The notes under the pieces: generated by a model
Told to the model about the DNA's origin: nothing
What the model saw: the letters and a program-made list of their open reading frames with translations, nothing else
Database searches by the model: none
In this document: positions 411 to 9,667 of the stretch, piece after piece
Numbering within the stretch: position 1 is the stretch's first letter
Layout of the letters: every line of letters begins with the position of its first letter
IMG/VR virus record: IMGVR_UViG_3300049255_000405
Direction: 5' to 3' (one strand)
DNA from: a virus
DNA: 10,796 nt
Position numbers and translations under genes: made by a program

Positions 411-425
411 GTGTAACGTTGCCTG

Positions 426-454
426 TGGACACTCGCATTCCCGAAGGTTATATT
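426..454 (+). promoter_or_regulatory. candidate sigma70-type promoter, TGGACA (426-431) - 17 nt - TATATT (449-454), feeding the 473..1276 operon
   Basis: It sits in the 62-bp gap after the HNH stop. The -35 element matches the consensus at 5 of 6 positions and the -10 at 5 of 6, with a 17-nt spacer. The predicted transcription start near 461 leaves a short leader containing GGAG before the ATG at 473. Confidence 0.4.
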
Positions 455-472
455 CTCGTCTCCACAGCGGAG

Positions 473-706
473 ATGGCTCGCCTGACTGCGGAAAACGCCC
501 GTCTGCTCGAGCAAATTCGTGAGCTGCAACAGCACGGGACTCTCCGTGAAGAGCAGCTGCGTGCTTATCGTAGACTGGAATTTCCGCAAGAACAACTCAA
601 CAAGCTGAAAGCAGACCTGGAAGCGACGACGAAGAGGGTCCTTGACGCATATGGCCTAAAGCCGATGCACGAGGTCCTTCTTCCGCGTGTGGCAAACGGA
701 GCGTGA
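473..706 (+). CDS. small coiled-coil protein (77 aa), hypothetical
   Basis: ATG at 473, in frame with the tail of the 140..706 ORF. GCGGAG lies immediately upstream but is very close to the start. The product MARLTAENARLLEQIRELQQ... has heptad-like Leu/Glu/Arg periodicity. Its stop TGA (704-706) is 1 nt before the RRM-protein ATG. Third-position GC is lower than in neighbouring genes. Confidence 0.45.
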   Translation: MARLTAENARLLEQIRELQQHGTLREEQLRAYRRLEFPQEQLNKLKADLEATTKRVLDAYGLKPMHEVLLPRVANGA

Positions 707-707
707 C

Positions 708-1097
708 ATGGGCAATCGTATTTTCGTGGGCAACATCTCCTACAGCGTCTCGACCGAGGACCTCAAGTCGGCATTCGAGAGCTGCGGCACCATCACCGAC
801 GCCAAGGTGATGACTGACCGGGAAACCGGCCAGAGCCGCGGGTTCGGTTTCGTGACGTTCTCGTCCGATGCCGAAGCAGCCAAGGCCATCGAGACCTGGA
901 ACGGCGAGAACCTCGGCGGTCGCCAGCTCGTCGTCAACGAAGCCCACGCGCGCCCGGACAACCGCTCCGGTGGCGGCGGGGGTGGTGGCGGGAACCGTAG
1001 CGGCGGAGGCGGGGGTGGCCGTGGAGGCCCGCGTGGAGGCGGTGGCGGTCGGGATCGTGACGACCGCCGGCGTGGCCGCGACCGCGACTTCGGATGA
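708..1097 (+). CDS. RRM-domain glycine-rich RNA-binding protein with a C-terminal Gly/Arg/Asp-rich low-complexity tail
   Basis: ATG at 708 follows GGAG (697-700) after a 7-nt spacer. The protein has a textbook RNP2 motif (IFVGNI) and RNP1 motif (RGFGFVTF) with RRM-compatible spacing, followed by SGGGGGGGGNRSGGGGGGRGGPRGGGGGRDRDDRRRGRDRD. Third-position GC is high. The GTG at 687 opening the listed ORF is a less likely start. Confidence 0.9.
   Translation: MGNRIFVGNISYSVSTEDLKSAFESCGTITDAKVMTDRETGQSRGFGFVTFSSDAEAAKAIETWNGENLGGRQLVVNEAHARPDNRSGGGGGGGGNRSGGGGGGRGGPRGGGGGRDRDDRRRGRDRDFG
967..1086 (+). repeat. simple-sequence (GGN)n and (CGN/GAC) tract encoding the Gly/Arg/Asp tail of the RRM protein
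   Basis: There are runs of ggt/ggc/ggg/gga codons followed by cgg/cgt/gac codons. The tract also explains the spurious Pro/Arg/Ala-rich ORFs called in other frames and on the opposite strand (597..1100, 740..1117, 868..1182). Confidence 0.6.
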
Positions 1098-3518: not shown

Positions 3519-3896
3519 ATGCGTGTCGTCTCACAATCGATGGTCAAGGCGTTCGGCTATGGCATCTACATGGTGGAAGTCACTCCACCGCCAGTGCAGA
3601 AAGTCCGACCGAACGGTCACAAGGACGTGCAGCAGACCGAAGTATACCGCAGTCTACGCAGGTCCGGGATGCCGTTTACGGAAGTCGTGCTCGATTCCGA
3701 GGACGAGTCGCGCGCTTACGCCATCTCGTCCGAGGGTCACGAGCCCACCAAGTACGAACTCGCACTGATTTCGGACGAGGACTGGGAGCGGATTCGCACG
3801 TCCGTCGACATGTGGGGCTCGGAAGGATTCTCGGAGCGTCTGACCATGCTCGAGCAGCACAAGCCGCAGCCGGTCGAGACCACCGCTACCCCGTAG
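3519..3896 (+). CDS. hypothetical protein (125 aa)
   Basis: ATG at 3519 (MRVVSQSMVKAFGYG...). An alternative ATG lies at 3540. The GTG at 3453 that opens the listed ORF overlaps the neighbouring gene and is unlikely. The body has high third-position GC. There is no clear SD. The 3' end overlaps the convergent 3886..4455 gene by 11 bp. Confidence 0.5.
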   Translation: MRVVSQSMVKAFGYGIYMVEVTPPPVQKVRPNGHKDVQQTEVYRSLRRSGMPFTEVVLDSEDESRAYAISSEGHEPTKYELALISDEDWERIRTSVDMWGSEGFSERLTMLEQHKPQPVETTATP

Positions 3897-4455
3897 CTCT
3901 CAGACCGAGCTGCGTAATATCGATCCAGCCGTTTACCTGCTTCTTCTGACCCGCGCAAGAGAGGTGGTACCCGGCGAATCGGGACACGACTATCAGAGCA
4001 CATGGGTCGCCGAAAGCATCTGCGCACCCGCCGTCTGCCACAACCCACTCGTCACCCATGTTCCAAAGGAACACGCGTACTCCATATGGGTCCCCTTTAT
4101 TGGGGGCCCCTAGATGAATGATATCTCCCGGTTCTGGCATGCGCTCGAGCTGGAACGGCCTCCAGGCGGCAAGCTTCTGCGAGCCTTCGTAGAGCGACTC
4201 TATCCCGTGTTTGTTCCACTCCATCCCCTGTTCCGGGACGTCGCGACACAAAATACGGCTGTCTCGACATCCGAGTTTCCACAGCAACCAGTGGCAGAGG
4301 TCGGCGCCGGGATTGTAACCTCTGTAGTGTATGCGGCCCTGACAAACCTCGGTCTCCAGCCACTCGTCTCCAACGTGGGCGGGCAGCTTGGAGACAAGCT
4401 CCTGGACTGCCGCCCGACGGAGAGGGTCGGATGGTAGGCGCGGGGCGTTAACCAT
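3886..4455 (-). CDS. hypothetical protein (189 aa); possible Cys/His hydrolase of the papain-like NlpC/P60 or CHAP type (weak)
   Basis: It is a long minus-strand ORF with protein-like composition; the competing plus-strand ORF 4114..4437 looks less protein-like. The product has GADLCHWLLW followed about 60 aa later by PGDIIHLG...GVRVFLW, an order resembling the catalytic Cys then His of NlpC/P60-type enzymes. The ATG (complement of 4453-4455) has no SD and shares the palindrome CATG with the plus-strand ATG at 4454. Confidence 0.45.
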   Translation of the reverse strand: MVNAPRLPSDPLRRAAVQELVSKLPAHVGDEWLETEVCQGRIHYRGYNPGADLCHWLLWKLGCRDSRILCRDVPEQGMEWNKHGIESLYEGSQKLAAWRPFQLERMPEPGDIIHLGAPNKGDPYGVRVFLWNMGDEWVVADGGCADAFGDPCALIVVSRFAGYHLSCAGQKKQVNGWIDITQLGLRATG

Positions 4456-4648
4456 GCGCAATACTGTGGACCATAAACGACAAAGCGGAAGTAGTTTTCG
4501 GCTGACGATGAAGCGGGACGAGTATGCGATCCGCGCAGCGAACTCTGTGTATCAACACGCCGAGGAACAGGGTCACGACCTTCGTGACGCAGTCTCTGTT
4601 CTGTTTATCGCCATAGTCGCAATCGCGATTTTCTACACGGCGTGCTGA
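4454..4648 (+). CDS. small membrane protein (64 aa; alternative start at 4508 gives 46 aa) with a single C-terminal transmembrane helix
   Basis: The C-terminus VSVLFIAIVAIAIFYTAC is hydrophobic. The stop TGA (4646-4648) is embedded in the SD of the sigma-factor gene, which suggests translational coupling. The start is ambiguous between ATG 4454, which overlaps the start of the opposite-strand gene, and ATG 4508. Confidence 0.4.
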   Translation: MRNTVDHKRQSGSSFRLTMKRDEYAIRAANSVYQHAEEQGHDLRDAVSVLFIAIVAIAIFYTAC

Positions 4649-4656
4649 GGTGGCTC

Positions 4657-5805
4657 ATGGTACGTCAGGACAAAGACAAGTCGCACGACCCGATCGTGCA
4701 GTATTTCGCCGAAATTGGAGCGCATGATCTTCTCTCGCGTGAAGGGGAAGTCGCTGCTTTCCAGGATTTCGAGAAGGCGGAGGAGCTGCTCGTAGCACAG
4801 ATCGTCACCGGTCGCCGCGCGAAGGCCAGCCTTCCCAAGTTCCTCGAGTCCATCTCCAGTGAGAAGGATGTCGAGCCCGAGTATGTGAAGGTCGTCGAGG
4901 ACTTCTCTCGAGGCCGCTGCCACAACATCAGCCAATTCGTGCGGGCCGTCAGGTTCACAGATGCTGGGCGAGAGTGGCTCGACAAGCGCATCGCCGACCG
5001 TAAGCACGAGGAACTTCCTGCAACGTGGCACTCCAAGGTGCGGAAGCTTCACGCCAGACAGATGGCGCTCAAGAACGCTTTCGTTAGTGCCAACCTGCGG
5101 CTCGTGGTGTCGGTGGCGAAGAAGTATTCCAGGCCCTGGATGAGCCTGACCCTCAACGACCTCATCCAGGAGGGTAACCTGGGGCTCATCAAGGCCGTCG
5201 ACCGATTCGACGTGCACAAGGGCTACAAGTTCGCCACGTACGCCTCGTGGTGGATCAGGCATCACGTCAAGCGCGCGGTCCAGGAGAAAGAACCGCTCGT
5301 CCGCATCCCCGTGCACGTCAGCGACGTCATGGGGCAGCTCACTCGGCTGGACAATGTGCACCACGCCATCACCGGCGAGTCGCTCGACGAAGAGCAGCTC
5401 TCGAAGGCGACGGGCGCATCGGTTCAGAAGGTCAAGGCGGCCATCTCTCATCGTCCTGGGCGCAACGCGATGTCGCTCGATGCCATGGCGGGCGATTCGG
5501 ACGTTCCTTGGGTCGAGATGACACCCGACACTAAGATGCCGGACCCCGAGACTCAGCTCATGGAGTCTCGCATGAACGCGGATGTCCGGTCCATGCTCAC
5601 GGCACTCACGCCAATCGAGTCACGCATCCTGCGGTGGCGGTTCGGGCTCGACGGGGATTCGCAGACCCTGCAGGAGATCGCTGACAAGTTCAACCTGTCG
5701 CGCGAGCGTATCCGGCAGATAGAGTCTCGAGCTTTGCAGAAGCTCAAGAACCGAGCACGAGCCAGCGAGCACGCCCGGGACCTGTTCTTCCGCAAGACCG
5801 GCTGA
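4657..5805 (+). CDS. sigma-70-family RNA polymerase sigma factor with RpoD-like regions 1.2, 2.1-2.4, 3 and 4, and a non-conserved insertion between regions 1.2 and 2
   Basis: ATG at 4657 follows GAGGTGG after a short spacer. Region 1.2 is IVQYFAEIGAHDLLSREGEV. Region 2 is NLRLVVSVAKKYS...LNDLIQEGNLGLIKAVDRFDVHKGYKFATYASWWIRHHVKRAV. Region 4 is LTPIESRILRWRFGL...TLQEIADKFNLSRERIRQIESRALQKLKN. The GTG at 4642 that opens the listed ORF is less likely. Confidence 0.95.
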   Translation: MVRQDKDKSHDPIVQYFAEIGAHDLLSREGEVAAFQDFEKAEELLVAQIVTGRRAKASLPKFLESISSEKDVEPEYVKVVEDFSRGRCHNISQFVRAVRFTDAGREWLDKRIADRKHEELPATWHSKVRKLHARQMALKNAFVSANLRLVVSVAKKYSRPWMSLTLNDLIQEGNLGLIKAVDRFDVHKGYKFATYASWWIRHHVKRAVQEKEPLVRIPVHVSDVMGQLTRLDNVHHAITGESLDEEQLSKATGASVQKVKAAISHRPGRNAMSLDAMAGDSDVPWVEMTPDTKMPDPETQLMESRMNADVRSMLTALTPIESRILRWRFGLDGDSQTLQEIADKFNLSRERIRQIESRALQKLKNRARASEHARDLFFRKTG

Positions 5806-5821
5806 CTGTAGTATTCCCGCA

Positions 5822-7220: not shown

Positions 7221-7251
7221 ATAGAGCGCCGGCGGCTGTACACTGGCCCGC

Positions 7252-8463
7252 ATGGCTTACGAGACCGTTCTCGGTGGAAACGTACCGATTCTCGCCTGGA
7301 CCGAAGGCGTCAAGTTCGAAGAGCATGCCAAGGTCCAGCTCCGGTACATCGCTATGTTGCCGATCATCTTCCGGCACGTGGCTGTGATGCCGGACGTCAC
7401 ACCCGAGCACGGGTCGACGGTCGGGAGTGTCATTCCCACCAAGGGCGCGGTCATTCCGGCCGCCGTGGGAGGTGACATCGGCTGCGGAATGATGGCCTGG
7501 CGCACGACGCTGACCTCGCACGACGTGTCGGACAACGCCCAAGAGCTGTACGACACCATCCTCGATGCGGTGCCCGTTCCTACATCCACCAAGCGCGTCA
7601 AGAACGACGGCAGCTGGGATGACGTCCCGCGGGAAGTTGCAGACGCCTGGGCCGGCATGCAGGCCGGTTGGCGCCAGATAGTCGGCCGCCACGGCAGGGC
7701 ATCGGCCAGGGATGTCCATAAGCAGCTCGGCACTCTTGGCGGCGGGAATCACTTCATCGAGGTTTGCCTCGACGAAGAAGATCGCGTGTGGTTCATGCTG
7801 CACTCAGGCTCGCGTCGCGCCGGCAACGCCATCGGCATGCATTTCATCGCGCTCGCGCGCAAAGACATGATGCGCCAGAACGTGCGCCTGCCGAATATGG
7901 ACCTGGCGTACTTCTCCGAAGGCTCCGAGCACTTCAACGACTACGTGTTCGCGGTCAAGTGGGCCCAAGAGTACGCTGCCGTCAACCGCGACCTCATGAT
8001 GCAGCGAATCGTCCGCGCCGTACGCAAGAAGCTCGGCGTGAAGTTCATGCTCGACGAGGAGGCAATCAACTGCCACCACAACTACGTCGAGAAAGAGACC
8101 CACTTCGGCGAAGAGATTTTCGTCACCCGCAAGGGAGCCATCTCCGCGCGCCAAGGGCAACTCGGCATCATCCCGGGCTCTATGGGAACCGAGAGCTTCA
8201 TCGTACGCGGTCTCGGAAATGCCGACTCTTTCTGTTCATCATCGCACGGAGCCGGCCGAACGATGCCGCGAGGGGAAGCTGGTCAGCGCATCACGCTCGA
8301 GCAGCACCGCAAGGACACCGAGGGAATCGTGTGCCGCAAGGACAAGGGCGTGGTCGACGAATCGCCGACTGCGTACAAGGACGTCAACGCGGTCATGGCG
8401 GCGCAAACGGATCTTGTCGAGAAGGTCCACACACTCCGGCAAATTGTCAACATCAAGGGCTAG
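7252..8463 (+). CDS. rtcB: RtcB-family 3'-phosphate/5'-hydroxyl RNA ligase
   Basis: ATG at 7252. The family signature blocks are all present: GGDIGCGM, GGGNHFIE, LHSGSRRAGN, NCHHNY, and the C-terminal HGAGR that carries the guanylylated His. The length of 403 aa matches bacterial RtcB, and no intein-sized insertion is present. Confidence 0.95.
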   Translation: MAYETVLGGNVPILAWTEGVKFEEHAKVQLRYIAMLPIIFRHVAVMPDVTPEHGSTVGSVIPTKGAVIPAAVGGDIGCGMMAWRTTLTSHDVSDNAQELYDTILDAVPVPTSTKRVKNDGSWDDVPREVADAWAGMQAGWRQIVGRHGRASARDVHKQLGTLGGGNHFIEVCLDEEDRVWFMLHSGSRRAGNAIGMHFIALARKDMMRQNVRLPNMDLAYFSEGSEHFNDYVFAVKWAQEYAAVNRDLMMQRIVRAVRKKLGVKFMLDEEAINCHHNYVEKETHFGEEIFVTRKGAISARQGQLGIIPGSMGTESFIVRGLGNADSFCSSSHGAGRTMPRGEAGQRITLEQHRKDTEGIVCRKDKGVVDESPTAYKDVNAVMAAQTDLVEKVHTLRQIVNIKG

Positions 8464-8621: not shown

Positions 8622-8832
8622 CTGGAAGCCTCGGCTTTCTCACGGGCATCGTCTCGGGAAATCGGAAGCCAAGGTGTGGGCCCCTGCCGGGACTCCCCGA
8701 TTCTACTCCGTCCGTACCTGCAAACGCTGTGGAGGTGAAGTCGGCCACCACTCCGCAGGGCACTTCGCTACAGAAGAACTCTTCAAGAAATGCCAGGGAA
8801 CGAATGAACAACAAGATCGCCAGAACCGATAG
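8590..8832 (+). CDS. hypothetical protein (80 aa) with a CKRCGG...HH...H cluster
   Basis: GTG at 8590 is preceded by GAGGAGG (8576-8582) with a 6-7-nt spacer, which is a strong SD. It overlaps the 3' end of 8466..8621 by 32 nt. Confidence 0.45.
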   Translation: MGDELFTIKPDWKPRLSHGHRLGKSEAKVWAPAGTPRFYSVRTCKRCGGEVGHHSAGHFATEELFKKCQGTNEQQDRQNR

Positions 8833-8840
8833 AGCCAGGC

Positions 8841-9101
8841 ATGATCGACGTCGAGAAGCTCGCACGCGGCTTTGATGAGGCCGGGGTTGACCAGCGTCTC
8901 GGGGCGAAGAGGGTCGATCGCCTCAGGCATTGCTCCGCGTTGCCGGCAATTTGCGCACGCGGTCCGGATTGCGTCGTTGTCGATGATGACCGCGGCGATT
9001 GGGTCGGCGGCCACCACTGCGCTGCCCTTGAACTCCATCCACGGTCCCCCCCCGCGGACGATTTCGATTCCGGTGGGAAGTGCATCAGGCGGTGGAAATA
9101 A
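8841..9101 (+). CDS. hypothetical protein (86 aa)
   Basis: ATG at 8841, 8 nt after the previous stop. The opposite-strand ORFs 8703..9038 and 8783..9145 are Ser/Pro/Arg/Trp-rich and look like antisense artefacts. The gene contains a C7 homopolymer at 9046-9052. Confidence 0.45.
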   Translation: MIDVEKLARGFDEAGVDQRLGAKRVDRLRHCSALPAICARGPDCVVVDDDRGDWVGGHHCAALELHPRSPPADDFDSGGKCIRRWK

Positions 9102-9139
9102 AAGACCCGCCTGCGGCCGACAAGAAACTCTATCGCAGG

Positions 9140-9169
9140 TTGCAAGGTCAGGCAGAAGAGTGGTACAAC
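9140..9169 (+). promoter_or_regulatory. candidate promoter, TTGCAA (9140-9145) - 18 nt - TGG-TACAAC (extended -10 at 9161-9169), upstream of 9209..9442
   Basis: It lies in the 107-bp non-coding gap. A TGn motif precedes the -10 hexamer. GGAGAG, the SD for the ATG at 9209, follows downstream. Confidence 0.3.
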
Positions 9170-9208
9170 TGCGACGAAGTCATTGCCTTTTGCATCATGG
9201 AGAGCTGA

Positions 9209-9442: not shown

Positions 9443-9633
9443 GAATTATGGACTTTGCGAACTGTCTCCCTCTCGAATGCTTCAAGCCGTGAGGCTTGGT
9501 GGTGCAATTGCGTGCTTACATCTTTGAGTTCGCGCGCTGCGTCCCTCTCCCAGCATTCGAAGTCCTTGCCCTCGGCCCACACGTCGGCCAGCTGGCGGGT
9601 TCTTGCGGCCAGCGTTCTTGTTATCTTACTCAT
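9439..9633 (-). CDS. small charged helical protein (64 aa); hypothetical, candidate regulator
   Basis: The ATG (complement of 9631-9633) is preceded on the minus strand by TTGACA-N16-TACATT-N6, which is a leaderless-type promoter. Codon bias in the body is high-GC-like. The product is MSKITRTLAARTRQLADVWAEGKDFECWERDAARELKD.... Confidence 0.45.
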   Translation of the reverse strand: MSKITRTLAARTRQLADVWAEGKDFECWERDAARELKDVSTQLHHQASRLEAFERETVRKVHNS

Positions 9634-9639
9634 ACCTAC

Positions 9640-9667
9640 AATGTAGCATAAGTACGCAAGATGTCAA
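9640..9667 (-). promoter_or_regulatory. near-consensus sigma70-type promoter on the minus strand: -35 TTGACA (complement of 9662-9667), 16-nt spacer, -10 TACATT (complement of 9640-9645), 6 nt before the ATG, so leaderless
   Basis: Read directly from the sequence. The -35 hexamer overlaps the plus-strand ATG at 9661. The inverted repeat CTACA-A-TGTAG (9636-9646) overlaps the -10 elements of both strands; the plus-strand TACAAT is at 9637-9642. Confidence 0.45.

What the first reader, a model, noticed from the sequence alone, without database searches (positions are those of the whole stretch)
4454..5805. Element-encoded RpoD-like sigma factor, translationally coupled to an upstream transmembrane microprotein
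The protein has regions 1.2, 2.1-2.4, 3 and 4 with near-canonical recognition helices, so it should read TTGACA and TATAAT-like promoters. This matches the candidate promoters in the window at 426-454 and 9640-9667. There is a non-conserved insertion between regions 1.2 and 2, as in group 1 and group 2 sigma factors. A housekeeping-like sigma factor alongside phosphatase, kinase and ligase genes, rather than a minimal ECF or gp28-like sigma, suggests programmed takeover of host RNA polymerase while keeping sigma70-type promoter specificity. The upstream 46-64-aa membrane protein ends inside the sigma factor's SD. A membrane-tethered anti-sigma-like partner is a speculative possibility.
Basis: partly seen in the sequence, partly recalled or inferred. 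Interest (0 to 1): 0.55.

Follow-up and report, generated by a model that had tools for sequence, protein, structure and literature searches.

The report
Megaphage sigma factor with coupled membrane microprotein
An uncultivated giant phage (about 390-440 kb) carries its own RpoD-like sigma factor, always translated just after a conserved 64-residue membrane-anchored protein.

Summary
Window 4657-5805 (+) encodes a 382-aa sigma-70-family protein with regions 1.2, 2, 3 (weak) and 4, an ~85-aa insert after 1.2, and no region 1.1. A 64-aa tail-anchored membrane protein (4454-4648) stops inside the sigma gene's Shine-Dalgarno sequence.

The pair, the coupling and the gene order recur in 8 of 8 related loci. 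Two of these are IMG/VR viral genomes of 393 and 436 kb, so the element is a megaphage and not a host chromosome.

- **Region 4.2** is canonical.
- **Region 2.4**: the two residues that read -12 are changed (Q437H, T440K). This is a family signature, rare in other RpoD-like sigmas.
- **Promoters**: TTGACA/TATAAT sites are not enriched. Site 426-454 lies in a coding sequence, and site 9640-9667 largely mirrors plus-strand signals.
- **Enriched motif**: the lineage instead carries a -35-less TGTAnnnT element, often 5-8 nt before ATG, which suggests leaderless mRNAs. Window examples are 5807-5814 (kinase-like gene) and 7237-7244 (RtcB).

Whether this sigma reads TGTAnnnT, and whether the microprotein regulates it, remain inferences. 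RpoD-like sigmas in jumbo phages that lack their own RNA polymerase are already described, so novelty is moderate.

The parts
4454..4648 (+). Microprotein gene, 64 aa: basic N-terminus, conserved motif, C-terminal transmembrane helix ending in Cys; TGA stop
   Evidence: An ORF with the same design lies directly upstream of the sigma gene in 8/8 lineage loci. dN/dS is 0.20-0.28 in the closer pairs. Conservation extends upstream of the internal ATG 4508, and L004 lacks that Met, so the 64-aa form is favoured. Gene callers report the 46-aa form (P0121).
4514..4543 (+). Conserved cytoplasmic motif RDEYAIRAAN (family pattern [RK]D-x-Y-A-[IL]-[RK]-x-A-N)
   Evidence: Alignment of seven orthologues; L010 has KDVKRALEEAN. 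No match in Pfam, NCBIfam or PHROGs.
4589..4645 (+). Predicted C-terminal transmembrane helix AVSVLFIAIVAIAIFYTAC (tail anchor)
   Evidence: Kyte-Doolittle 19-residue mean is 2.56 here and 2.37-2.77 in all eight orthologues. The N-terminal part carries a net positive charge.
4646..4653 (+). Coupling junction: microprotein stop TGA (4646-4648) overlapping the Shine-Dalgarno GAGGTG(G), 4 nt before sigma ATG 4657
   Evidence: Sequence. TGAGG (as TGAGGTG in four loci, TGAGGTA in L170, TGAGGAA in L172) is kept in 6/8 loci. L004 has TAG overlapping the GTG start. Many neighbouring genes lack any SD.
4657..5805 (+). Sigma-70-family factor, 382 aa, group-2-like architecture (1.2, NCR-like insert, 2, 3, 4; no 1.1)
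   Evidence: (PHROG 351, 6e-70).
4675..4797 (+). Region 1.2 (residues 7-47; core DPIVQYFAEIG at 4687-4719)
   Evidence: Aligns to RpoD region 1.2 in three PDB sigmas. Pfam r1_2 3.9e-4, just below its cutoff.
4798..5052 (+). Insert of about 85 aa between regions 1.2 and 2.1 (NCR-like, five short helices)
   Evidence: It is conserved within the family (FTDAGREW motif) and matches the equivalent stretch of Polyangia sigma paralogues (LPDSDRVW).
5248..5274 (+). Region 2.4 helix WWIRHHVKR: H202 (= sigma70 Q437) and K205 (= T440)
   Evidence: A basic residue at 440 occurs in 26/27 family members against 2/137 other RpoD-like sigmas; His at 437 occurs in 22/27 against 3/137. Q437H and T440I change -12 specificity in E. 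coli (PMC2613000).
5302..5328 (+). Region 3.0, RIPVHVSDV: H220 (= H455) kept, D223 (= E458, conservative change)
   Evidence: H455/E458 read the extended -10 G:C pair (PMC2613000).
5695..5748 (+). Region 4.2 recognition helix LSRERIRQIESRALQKLK: R349, E350, R353, Q354 (= R584, E585, R588, Q589) all canonical
   Evidence: RERIRQ is invariant in 27/27 family members.
5807..5814 (+). TGTAGTAT, a -10-like element 7 nt before ATG 5822 of the AAA_28 kinase-like gene, directly after the sigma stop codon
   Evidence: The same arrangement is present in L007, L170, L173 and L010.
7237..7244 (+). TGTACACT, a -10-like element 7 nt before ATG 7252 of RtcB
   Evidence: TGTAnnnT sits 7-8 nt before the RtcB ATG in L004, L007 and L171, although the surrounding sequence differs.
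412..419 (+). TGTAACGT, 5 nt before GTG 425 of an uncalled conserved 93-aa gene (425-706)
Evidence: The protein is 53-57% identical to called genes in L170 and L171.
9642..9649 (+).
   Evidence: conserved in L170. The minus-strand TTGACA (9667-9662) is the reverse complement of ATG-TCA-AGC, the start of the plus-strand gene.
3886..4455 (-). Divergent 189-aa gene whose ATG (4455-4453) overlaps the microprotein ATG (4454-4456) in a CATG
   Evidence: conserved from Met1, with a CHWLLWxLGCRDSR motif. The same CATG overlap occurs in L173. No match in Pfam, PHROGs or NCBIfam.

Best explanation
**What it is.** The gene at 4657-5805 encodes a full-length sigma-70-family factor of group-2-like build (regions 1.2, 2, 3 and 4 plus a short NCR-like insert, no 1.1). 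It belongs to an uncultivated megaphage lineage with genomes of about 390-440 kb.

**How it most likely works.** As in other jumbo phages without their own RNA polymerase, the sigma probably binds the host core RNA polymerase and directs it to phage promoters. Its -35-reading helix (region 4.2) is canonical. The two residues that read position -12 are replaced by His and Lys/Arg throughout the family, so its -10 preference should differ from TATAAT on the upstream side.

**Best candidate target.** The lineage's own over-represented promoter-like element is TGTAnnnT, that is T-14 G-13 T-12 A-11 ... T-7, with no -35 hexamer. It often lies 5-8 nt before the start codon, which would give leaderless mRNAs. 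It precedes the kinase-like gene and RtcB next to the sigma gene.

**How it is made.** Sigma is translated by termination-reinitiation coupling from a conserved 64-aa tail-anchored membrane protein, so the two are made together.

**Shown:** the protein's identity and domains, the residue changes, phage context, the microprotein's conservation and coupling, and the motif's enrichment and position.

**Inferred:** binding to host core polymerase, the sigma-TGTAnnnT assignment, and any functional link between the microprotein and sigma.
For: **Domains and residues:**

**Family signature:** Q437H/T440K, with a basic residue at 440 in 26/27 members against 2/137 other RpoD-like sigmas. These positions set -12 specificity (PMC2613000).

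**Phage context**
- Gene order is shared by loci whose sigmas are 37-53% identical to this one.
- Two contigs are IMG/VR viral genomes of 393 and 436 kb.
- Most neighbouring genes are orphans. UGA-suppressor tRNAs, a tmRNA and IF3 lie upstream.
- The lineage-specific neighbour gene has no homologue in GTDB representative genomes, and sigma has no close relative there.

**Motif**
- TGTAnnnT occurs 56 times in sense upstream regions against 13.3 +/- 3.6 in shuffles, or 3.7/kb against 0.25/kb in coding DNA.
- 32 of 161 occurrences lie 5-8 nt before the start of an ORF of at least 50 codons, against 2-7 for permuted patterns.
- The position is kept at orthologous genes while the sequence around it diverges.

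**Microprotein:** present in 8/8 loci, dN/dS 0.2-0.3, with the stop/SD overlap conserved.

**Literature:** jumbo phages lacking an RNA polymerase encode RpoD-like sigmas (PMC7824862; PMC13282480).
Against: - No experiment or transcript data link this sigma to TGTAnnnT. The host's primary sigma, another phage sigma (L171 carries a second one) or an unseen phage RNA polymerase could read it.
- TGTAnnnT also lies upstream of the microprotein-sigma operon in L171 and L004. That would require autoregulation, or an earlier promoter, if this sigma reads the motif.
- Strict conservation of the -35-reading residues fits poorly with a -35-less promoter class.
- No capsid, portal or terminase gene was seen, because only about 20 kb around each locus could be read.
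- The motif counts include orthologous sites, so they are not fully independent.
Confidence: 0.6

Rival explanations
1. Cascade model. TGTAnnnT promoters are read by the host primary sigma, so this whole region, including the microprotein-sigma operon, is early. The phage sigma then reads a different promoter class with a TTGACA-like -35 elsewhere in the ~400-kb genome, for example at late virion genes, as in SPO1 gp28.
For: - Region 4.2 is invariant and canonical.
- TGTAnnnT lies 29-39 nt upstream of the microprotein in true intergenic DNA of L171 and L004.
- The genes around sigma are 'early-type' functions: tRNAs, tmRNA, IF3, RtcB and RecA.
- Only a small part of each genome was sampled.
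Against: - G at -13 next to TA is not a feature of known primary-sigma promoters (my own knowledge).
- It coincides with a family-specific basic residue at the -12/-13-facing position.
- No TTGACA enrichment was seen in about 130 kb.
Confidence: 0.33
2. The microprotein is a membrane-tethered partner of the phage sigma, either an anti-sigma or a localiser. It is made at a fixed ratio through coupling and holds sigma at the membrane until it is released.
For: - The adjacency and coupling hold in 8/8 loci despite sigma identity as low as 37%.
- It has an N-in tail-anchor topology with a conserved ~40-aa cytoplasmic part.
- It is absent upstream of the nearest cellular sigma homologues.
- A conserved FtsH-protease-like gene (Peptidase_M41) lies nearby.
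Against: - No similarity to any anti-sigma domain.
- Known anti-sigma genes usually lie downstream of their sigma (my own knowledge).
- Operon neighbours in phages are often functionally unrelated.
Confidence: 0.15
3. The microprotein is an independent small membrane protein, for example acting in host-membrane or superinfection functions, or targeting a host protein. It shares only an mRNA and a ribosome hand-over with sigma.
For: - It evolves as a real protein under purifying selection but has no recognisable sigma-binding domain.
- SD-less and leaderless starts are common here, so coupling may simply be the way to translate an internal cistron.
Against: The pairing is never broken in eight divergent loci, while other neighbours (the 189-aa gene, AAA_28, HicA-like inserts) come and go.
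Confidence: 0.4
4. The locus is an ordinary chromosomal group-2 sigma gene of a bacterium.
For: The nearest cellular relatives are chromosomal sigma paralogues of Polyangia/Myxococcota at 36-38% identity. They share His at position 437 and a homologous insert.
Against: - Those homologues sit among ribosomal-protein and tRNA-synthetase genes, with no microprotein and no shared gene order.
- The window's gene order is found only on IMG/VR viral contigs and orphan-rich metagenome contigs.
- Nothing was found in GTDB representative genomes.
Confidence: 0.03

Closest known systems
RpoD-like sigma factors of jumbo phages without their own RNA polymerase ('group 2' of Iyer et al. 2021, PMC7824862; PHROG 351)
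   Same: A phage-borne, near-complete sigma-70 homologue presumed to recruit host core RNA polymerase. It matches PHROG 351 at 6e-70.
   Different: - No close relative in 50,697 annotated phage records: the best match is 41% identity over 61% of the protein.
- A family-specific His/Lys pair at the -12-reading positions.
- An obligatory coupled upstream membrane microprotein.
- An associated TGTAnnnT motif.
Sigma-70 paralogues of Polyangia/Myxococcota (P0030, P0058, P0112 and similar; 440-520 aa)
   Same: They are the closest cellular sequences (36-38% identity over 93-96% of the query). They share His at position 437, a homologous insert after region 1.2, and the LSRERIRQ helix.
   Different: - The cellular proteins have long N-terminal extensions.
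- They have Ser, not Lys, at position 440.
- They sit in a chromosomal housekeeping context with no microprotein.
E. coli sigma70 / sigmaS (group 1 and group 2 sigma factors)
   Same: Regions 1.2-4 are present. The melting residues Y425, Y430, W433 and W434, plus H455, R584, E585, R588 and Q589, are all conserved.
   Different: - No region 1.1.
- Q437H, T440K and E458D.
- Every NCBIfam RpoD, RpoS or SigA model scores far below its cutoff, e.g. 239.8 against 555.
SPO1 gp28 / T4 gp55 (minimal phage sigma factors)
   Same: By analogy, a phage-made sigma that reprograms host RNA polymerase in a temporal cascade (my own knowledge).
   Different: Those are minimal and highly diverged. This one keeps regions 1.2, 3 and a canonical 4.2.
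Membrane-anchored anti-sigma factors of ECF sigmas (RseA, RsiW) and small phage sigma-binding proteins (T4 AsiA)
   Same: A single-pass membrane anchor with a cytoplasmic N-terminus, co-expressed with a sigma. AsiA shows that proteins under 100 aa can bind sigma region 4 (PMC7824862).
   Different: - No anti-sigma domain detected.
- Essentially no extracytoplasmic part.
- The gene lies upstream, not downstream, of sigma.
- The partner is an RpoD-like sigma, not an ECF sigma.
- Binding was not tested.

Membership tests
Sigma-70 family | Region 2 and region 4 domains above the Pfam gathering scores | tested here: met
   Sigma70_r2 62.8 bits (cutoff 24) and Sigma70_r4 61.3 bits (cutoff 24.1). TIGR02937 superfamily 113 bits (cutoff 42.9).
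Group 1 (primary, RpoD/SigA) sigma factors | N-terminal region 1.1 | tested here: not met
   Region 1.2 begins at residue 10. The ORF cannot extend more than 5 codons upstream.
Group 1 (primary, RpoD/SigA) sigma factors | Score above the curated RpoD/SigA equivalog cutoffs | tested here: not met
   NF004208 239.8 against 555; TIGR02393 211.1 against 354; NF006666 194.7 against 572.
Group 1 (primary, RpoD/SigA) sigma factors | Canonical -10/-12 reading residues Q437 and T440 | tested here: not met
   H202 and K205. Q occurs in 132/137 and T in 112/137 other RpoD-like sigmas.
Group 2-like sigma architecture | Regions 1.2, 2, 3 and 4 present, with 1.1 absent or reduced | tested here: met
   Region 3 is detected only weakly (Pfam 4.7e-3), but it aligns and is modelled as helices.
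Group 2-like sigma architecture | A non-essential paralogue of a cell's primary sigma | not testable with these tools
   The gene is phage-borne, so the definition does not strictly apply.
Phage RpoD-like sigma factors (PHROG 351) | Profile match and a phage genomic context | tested here: met
   PHROG 351 6e-70. Syntenic IMG/VR UViGs of 393 and 436 kb.
Phage RpoD-like sigma factors (PHROG 351) | Absence of a phage multisubunit RNA polymerase in the same genome (group 2 of Iyer et al.) | not tested
   Only about 20 kb around each locus could be read.
MzaA (sigma of the MZA anti-phage system) | Score above the NF041931 cutoff | tested here: not met
   236.9 bits against a cutoff of 800, and only the C-terminal 253 residues align.
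Membrane-anchored anti-sigma factor (for the microprotein) | A recognisable anti-sigma domain | tested here: not met
   No hit in Pfam, NCBIfam or PHROGs.
Membrane-anchored anti-sigma factor (for the microprotein) | A single transmembrane segment with the sigma-facing part in the cytoplasm | tested here: met
   C-terminal hydrophobic helix (KD19 2.4-2.8) and a positively charged N-terminal part in 8/8 orthologues. The topology is predicted, not measured.
Membrane-anchored anti-sigma factor (for the microprotein) | Direct binding to, and inhibition of, the cognate sigma | not testable with these tools

The most novel reading that the evidence does not exclude
The 64-aa tail-anchored microprotein is a dedicated membrane tether, or anti-sigma, for a phage-encoded RpoD-like sigma. 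The sigma's His/Lys-substituted region 2.4 reads the lineage's -35-less TGTAnnnT leaderless promoters. A membrane event, such as proteolysis by the nearby FtsH-like protein or later read-through of the microprotein's UGA stop by the phage's suppressor tRNAs, would then time the transcriptional switch of a megaphage.
Probability: 0.1. Interest if true: 0.75.

Novelty: new variant of a known kind. Interest (0 to 1): 0.45.

Why it matters
- **Transcription programmes.** How uncultivated megaphages organise transcription is essentially unknown. Here a sigma clade with a defined change at the -12/-13-reading positions co-occurs with a strongly enriched promoter-like element of matching geometry (TGTAnnnT, G at -13). 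That gives a directly testable sigma-promoter pair.
- **Annotation.** The motif helped recover one uncalled gene in the window (425-706).
- **A possible new regulator.** The invariably coupled tail-anchored microprotein is a candidate regulator of an RpoD-like sigma. If so, it would be the first membrane-tethered one for this sigma class.
- **If neither link holds,** the locus is still a well-documented example of an already known strategy: a jumbo phage carrying a cell-derived sigma.

Tried and rejected
1. **Megablast against phage records.** The whole window matched only weakly, over RtcB.
2. **Metagenome scan with the sigma alignment.** It was swamped by generic sigma-70 genes because the patterns were too general, so it gave no lineage loci. 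I used exact-protein look-ups instead.
3. **Consensus sigma70 promoter scans.** No excess in the window or across seven loci.
4. **Unbiased 5-mer/gap/5-mer dyad search of 121 upstream regions.** Nothing exceeded shuffles, so no -35 partner for TGTAnnnT was found. The position-specific profile also shows none.
5. **k-mer enrichment.** It first surfaced tRNA-like words, which led to the tRNA and tmRNA genes. These were masked before the motif work.
6. **TGTAnnnT at 4314 and 4323 as the operon promoter.** Rejected as evidence. One of them is the reverse complement of conserved GYN codons of the minus-strand gene.
8. **Homologue search for the microprotein.** Only three clusters were found, because small ORFs are rarely called.
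9. **Rfam scan of the window.** No match.
10. **Microprotein read-through fusing to sigma.** Considered and rejected. The two genes are in frame only in L170.
Full report
**1. What is in the sequence**

The ORF table shows a 387-codon frame at 4642-5805. The likely start is ATG 4657. It is preceded by GAGGTG at 4647-4652, and the resulting 382-aa protein is identical to database protein P0001, whose relatives start at the same place.

- Pfam finds Sigma70_r2 (2.6e-17) and Sigma70_r4 (6e-17) well above their cutoffs. Region 1.2 (3.9e-4) and region 3 (4.7e-3) fall just below theirs.
- Against solved structures, residues 7-47 align to RpoD region 1.2 and residues 133-370 to regions 2-4 (best E about 5e-51).
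- The ~85 residues in between are a short helical insert. In the AF2 model (27-sequence alignment, mean pLDDT 79) they form five short helices. Foldseek returns sigma70/SigA chains of holoenzyme complexes (E 1e-15).
- There is no space for region 1.1.
- Every NCBIfam RpoD, SigA or RpoS model scores far below its cutoff. Only the sigma-70 superfamily model passes.

The protein is group-2-like in build and is not a housekeeping RpoD.

**2. Recognition residues**

I numbered residues on E. coli sigma70, using the HMMER alignments and the coordinates.

- *Kept:* the melting and -11/-7 pocket residues (Y425, F427, T429, Y430, W433, W434). E420 and R423 are conservatively changed to D and K.
- *Kept:* the extended -10 residue H455. 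E458 becomes Asp.
- *Kept:* the -35 helix, which is canonical (R584, E585, R586, R588, Q589 as SRERIRQ). It is invariant in 27/27 family members.
- *Changed:* Q437 and T440, the two residues whose substitutions (Q437H, T440I) alter -12 specificity in E. coli (PMC2613000). Here they are H202 and K205.

The change is a family signature. A basic residue occupies position 440 in 26/27 family members, against 2/137 RpoD-like sigmas fetched in the broad scans, and one of those two belongs to this lineage. His at 437 occurs in 22/27 against 3/137. 'Near-canonical' is thus right for region 4.2 and wrong for region 2.4.

**3. Where it lives**

The exact protein occurs on several contigs. The longest fetched contig carrying sigma is 50.7 kb, one search lists a longest contig of 85.6 kb, and the microprotein cluster lists one of 242 kb.

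About 25 relatives (39-76% identity, 366-385 aa) form a tight family. After them, identity falls to 36-38% with chromosomal sigma paralogues of Polyangia/Myxococcota MAGs.

The gene order is HNH, RRM protein..., DSP phosphatase-like..., microprotein, sigma, AAA_28 kinase-like..., RtcB... It is kept in loci whose sigmas are 37-53% identical to the window's.

- One such contig (393,220 bp) is IMG/VR UViG 3300012980_000004. Another syntenic one is a 436,316-bp UViG.
- Most neighbouring genes have no Pfam or PHROG match.
- Upstream of the window, its own contig carries IF3, a tmRNA and two 74-nt tRNAs with anticodon UCA.
- The nearest cellular homologues sit among rpmI, rplT and pheS or other housekeeping genes, with no shared neighbours.
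- Neither the lineage-specific 189-aa neighbour nor a close sigma relative was found in 185,579 species-representative genomes.

I conclude that this is a megaphage gene, probably captured long ago from a Myxococcota-type sigma paralogue. That paralogue shares His437 and a homologous insert after region 1.2. I did not see virion genes, because only about 20 kb per locus was readable.

**4. The microprotein**

An ORF ending at or within a few bases of the sigma start exists in all eight lineage loci examined.

- The products are 49-67 aa long.
- Each has a basic N-terminus, a conserved [RK]D-x-YA[IL][RK]xAN motif and a variable linker.
- Each ends in a C-terminal hydrophobic helix (Kyte-Doolittle 19-residue mean 2.4-2.8) that finishes in Cys.
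- dN/dS is 0.20-0.28 for the less saturated pairs, so it is a real protein.

Conservation extends upstream of the internal ATG 4508, and L004 lacks that Met. This favours the 64-aa form that starts at ATG 4454. That ATG overlaps the ATG of the divergent 189-aa gene in a CATG, and the same overlap is seen in L173.

The stop codon overlaps the sigma Shine-Dalgarno sequence in six loci: TGAGGTG in four, TGAGGTA in L170 and TGAGGAA in L172. It overlaps the start codon itself in L004. Many neighbouring genes have no SD at all. The cellular homologues have no such upstream ORF.

The observation of coupling is therefore confirmed, and it proves to be a conserved trait. The protein matches nothing in Pfam, NCBIfam or PHROGs. 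A complex prediction could not be run. An anti-sigma or tether role is possible but untested.

**5. Promoters**

- Across seven loci, such sites are not enriched in intergenic DNA: 11 against 16.6 +/- 4.8 in shuffles, or 0.55/kb against 0.47/kb in coding DNA.
- TTGACA, TATAAT and TGnTAnnnT show no excess either.
- Site 426-454 is codons 1-10 of a conserved but uncalled 93-aa gene (GTG 425-706), which is 53-57% identical to called genes in L170 and L171.
- In site 9640-9667, the minus-strand TTGACA is the reverse complement of ATG-TCA-AGC, which opens the plus-strand gene at 9661. Its -10 overlaps a plus-strand TGTAGCAT. A real minus-strand promoter for the 64-aa gene at 9633 is not excluded.

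What is enriched is TGTAnnnT in the sense orientation upstream of genes.

- It occurs 56 times against 13.3 +/- 3.6 in shuffles, and at 3.7/kb against 0.25/kb in coding DNA.
- 32 of its 161 occurrences lie 5-8 nt before an ATG or GTG that opens an ORF of at least 50 codons. Permuted control patterns give 2-7.
- No -35 partner appears.
- At RtcB and at the AAA_28 gene, the element keeps its distance to the start codon in three to five divergent loci each, while the flanking bases change.
- In the window it lies at 5807-5814 (7 nt before ATG 5822), 7237-7244 (7 nt before ATG 7252), 412-419, 9642-9649 and 1798-1805 on the minus strand.

This geometry, TAnnnT at -12 to -7 and a start about 7 nt downstream, is that of a sigma-70-family -10 element driving leaderless mRNAs, with TG shifted to -14/-13.

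**6. How it most likely works**

The shown facts are consistent with a phage sigma that takes over host core RNA polymerase, the known strategy of jumbo phages without their own polymerase (PMC7824862; PMC13282480).

The unusual G at -13 abuts the base pair faced by residues 437 and 440. The family has fixed His and Lys/Arg there, and Lys-guanine contacts are common (my own knowledge).

The main rival is a cascade in which the host sigma reads TGTAnnnT and the phage sigma reads an unseen late class that has a -35 element. Three observations favour that rival:
- the invariant region 4.2;
- TGTAnnnT upstream of the microprotein-sigma operon in L171 and L004;
- the small fraction of each genome that was sampled.

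A phage RNA polymerase reading the motif cannot be excluded without the full contigs.

For the microprotein, the most economical reading is co-production with sigma through ribosome hand-over. Whether it also binds sigma is open.

**7. Comparison and novelty**

Phage-borne RpoD-like sigmas are a described class (PHROG 351; PMC7824862). This clade has no close relative among annotated phages: the best match is 41% identity over 61% of the protein.

It differs from the described class in three tested respects:
- the His/Lys signature in region 2.4;
- an obligatory coupled tail-anchored microprotein;
- a co-occurring non-canonical promoter-like motif.

I rate it a new variant of a known kind, of moderate interest.

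Noticed in passing
L001 2845-2918, 3134-3207, 3895-4299 and 4520-5053 (the window's own contig, 5-7 kb upstream of the window); also L004, L007, L170, L171, L172: There are two 73-75-nt tRNAs with anticodon UCA, which ARAGORN labels SeC but which are likely UGA suppressors. A tmRNA (tag ANDNAFAVAA) and an IF3 gene lie alongside. L172 has a tRNA with anticodon UUA instead. TGA is the commonest stop codon in this region, so suppression would cause widespread read-through. This hints at stage-specific stop-codon recoding, as described for other phages.
   Followed up: partly
L170 9806-11149: In this one locus the microprotein and sigma are in the same frame, separated only by TGA plus three codons. 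UGA suppression would give a membrane-anchored microprotein-sigma fusion. The other five TGA-terminated loci are out of frame, so this is probably coincidental.
   Followed up: yes
window 425-706 (+): A conserved 93-aa coiled-coil-like protein (GTG start) was not called on the window's own contig but is called in L170, L171 and L007. It is preceded by TGTAACGT at 412-419.
   Followed up: yes
window 4453-4456; L173 6070-6073: The divergent 189-aa gene and the microprotein gene overlap at their start codons in a palindromic CATG, leaving no intergenic space for either promoter.
   Followed up: partly
window 3886-4455 (-): The 189-aa protein has an invariant C-x-W-[LM]-L-W-x-L-G-C-R-D-S-R motif and no match in Pfam, PHROGs or NCBIfam. 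It is present in the window, L007, L172 and L173, appears truncated in the L170 gene call, and has no counterpart among the called genes of L004 and L171.
   Followed up: partly
window-wide and related loci (e.g. starts at 7252, 5822 and 9661): Many genes have no Shine-Dalgarno sequence, and a -10-like element sits 5-8 nt before the start codon. This suggests frequent leaderless mRNAs, which is unusual for most well-studied phage-host systems.
   Followed up: partly
L171 4567-5337 (-): A second, shorter sigma-70-family gene (256 aa, regions 2 and 4) lies about 5 kb upstream of the main sigma in this relative. It was not seen in the equivalent part of the window's contig.
   Followed up: no
L001 17236-17940; L170 18074-18769; L171 17198-17899: A conserved ~233-aa protein has an FtsH-type Peptidase_M41 hit and is too short for a full FtsH. 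It lies about 7 kb downstream of sigma.
   Followed up: no
window 708-1097 (+): An RRM_1 RNA-binding protein (3.7e-23) with a long Gly/Arg-rich tail, conserved in nearly all related loci.
   Followed up: no
window 8622-9208: A stretch of about 590 bp has no called gene, no tRNA and no Rfam match. The equivalent stretch in L007 is also uncalled, whereas L171 has small genes there.
   Followed up: no
L172 and L173 downstream of sigma: More distant lineage members carry RecA, a RuvB-like AAA protein, a RuvC-like resolvase, an SbcC-like ATPase, RNase II/R with a dsRBD, ferritin and a HicA-like insert next to sigma.
   Followed up: no
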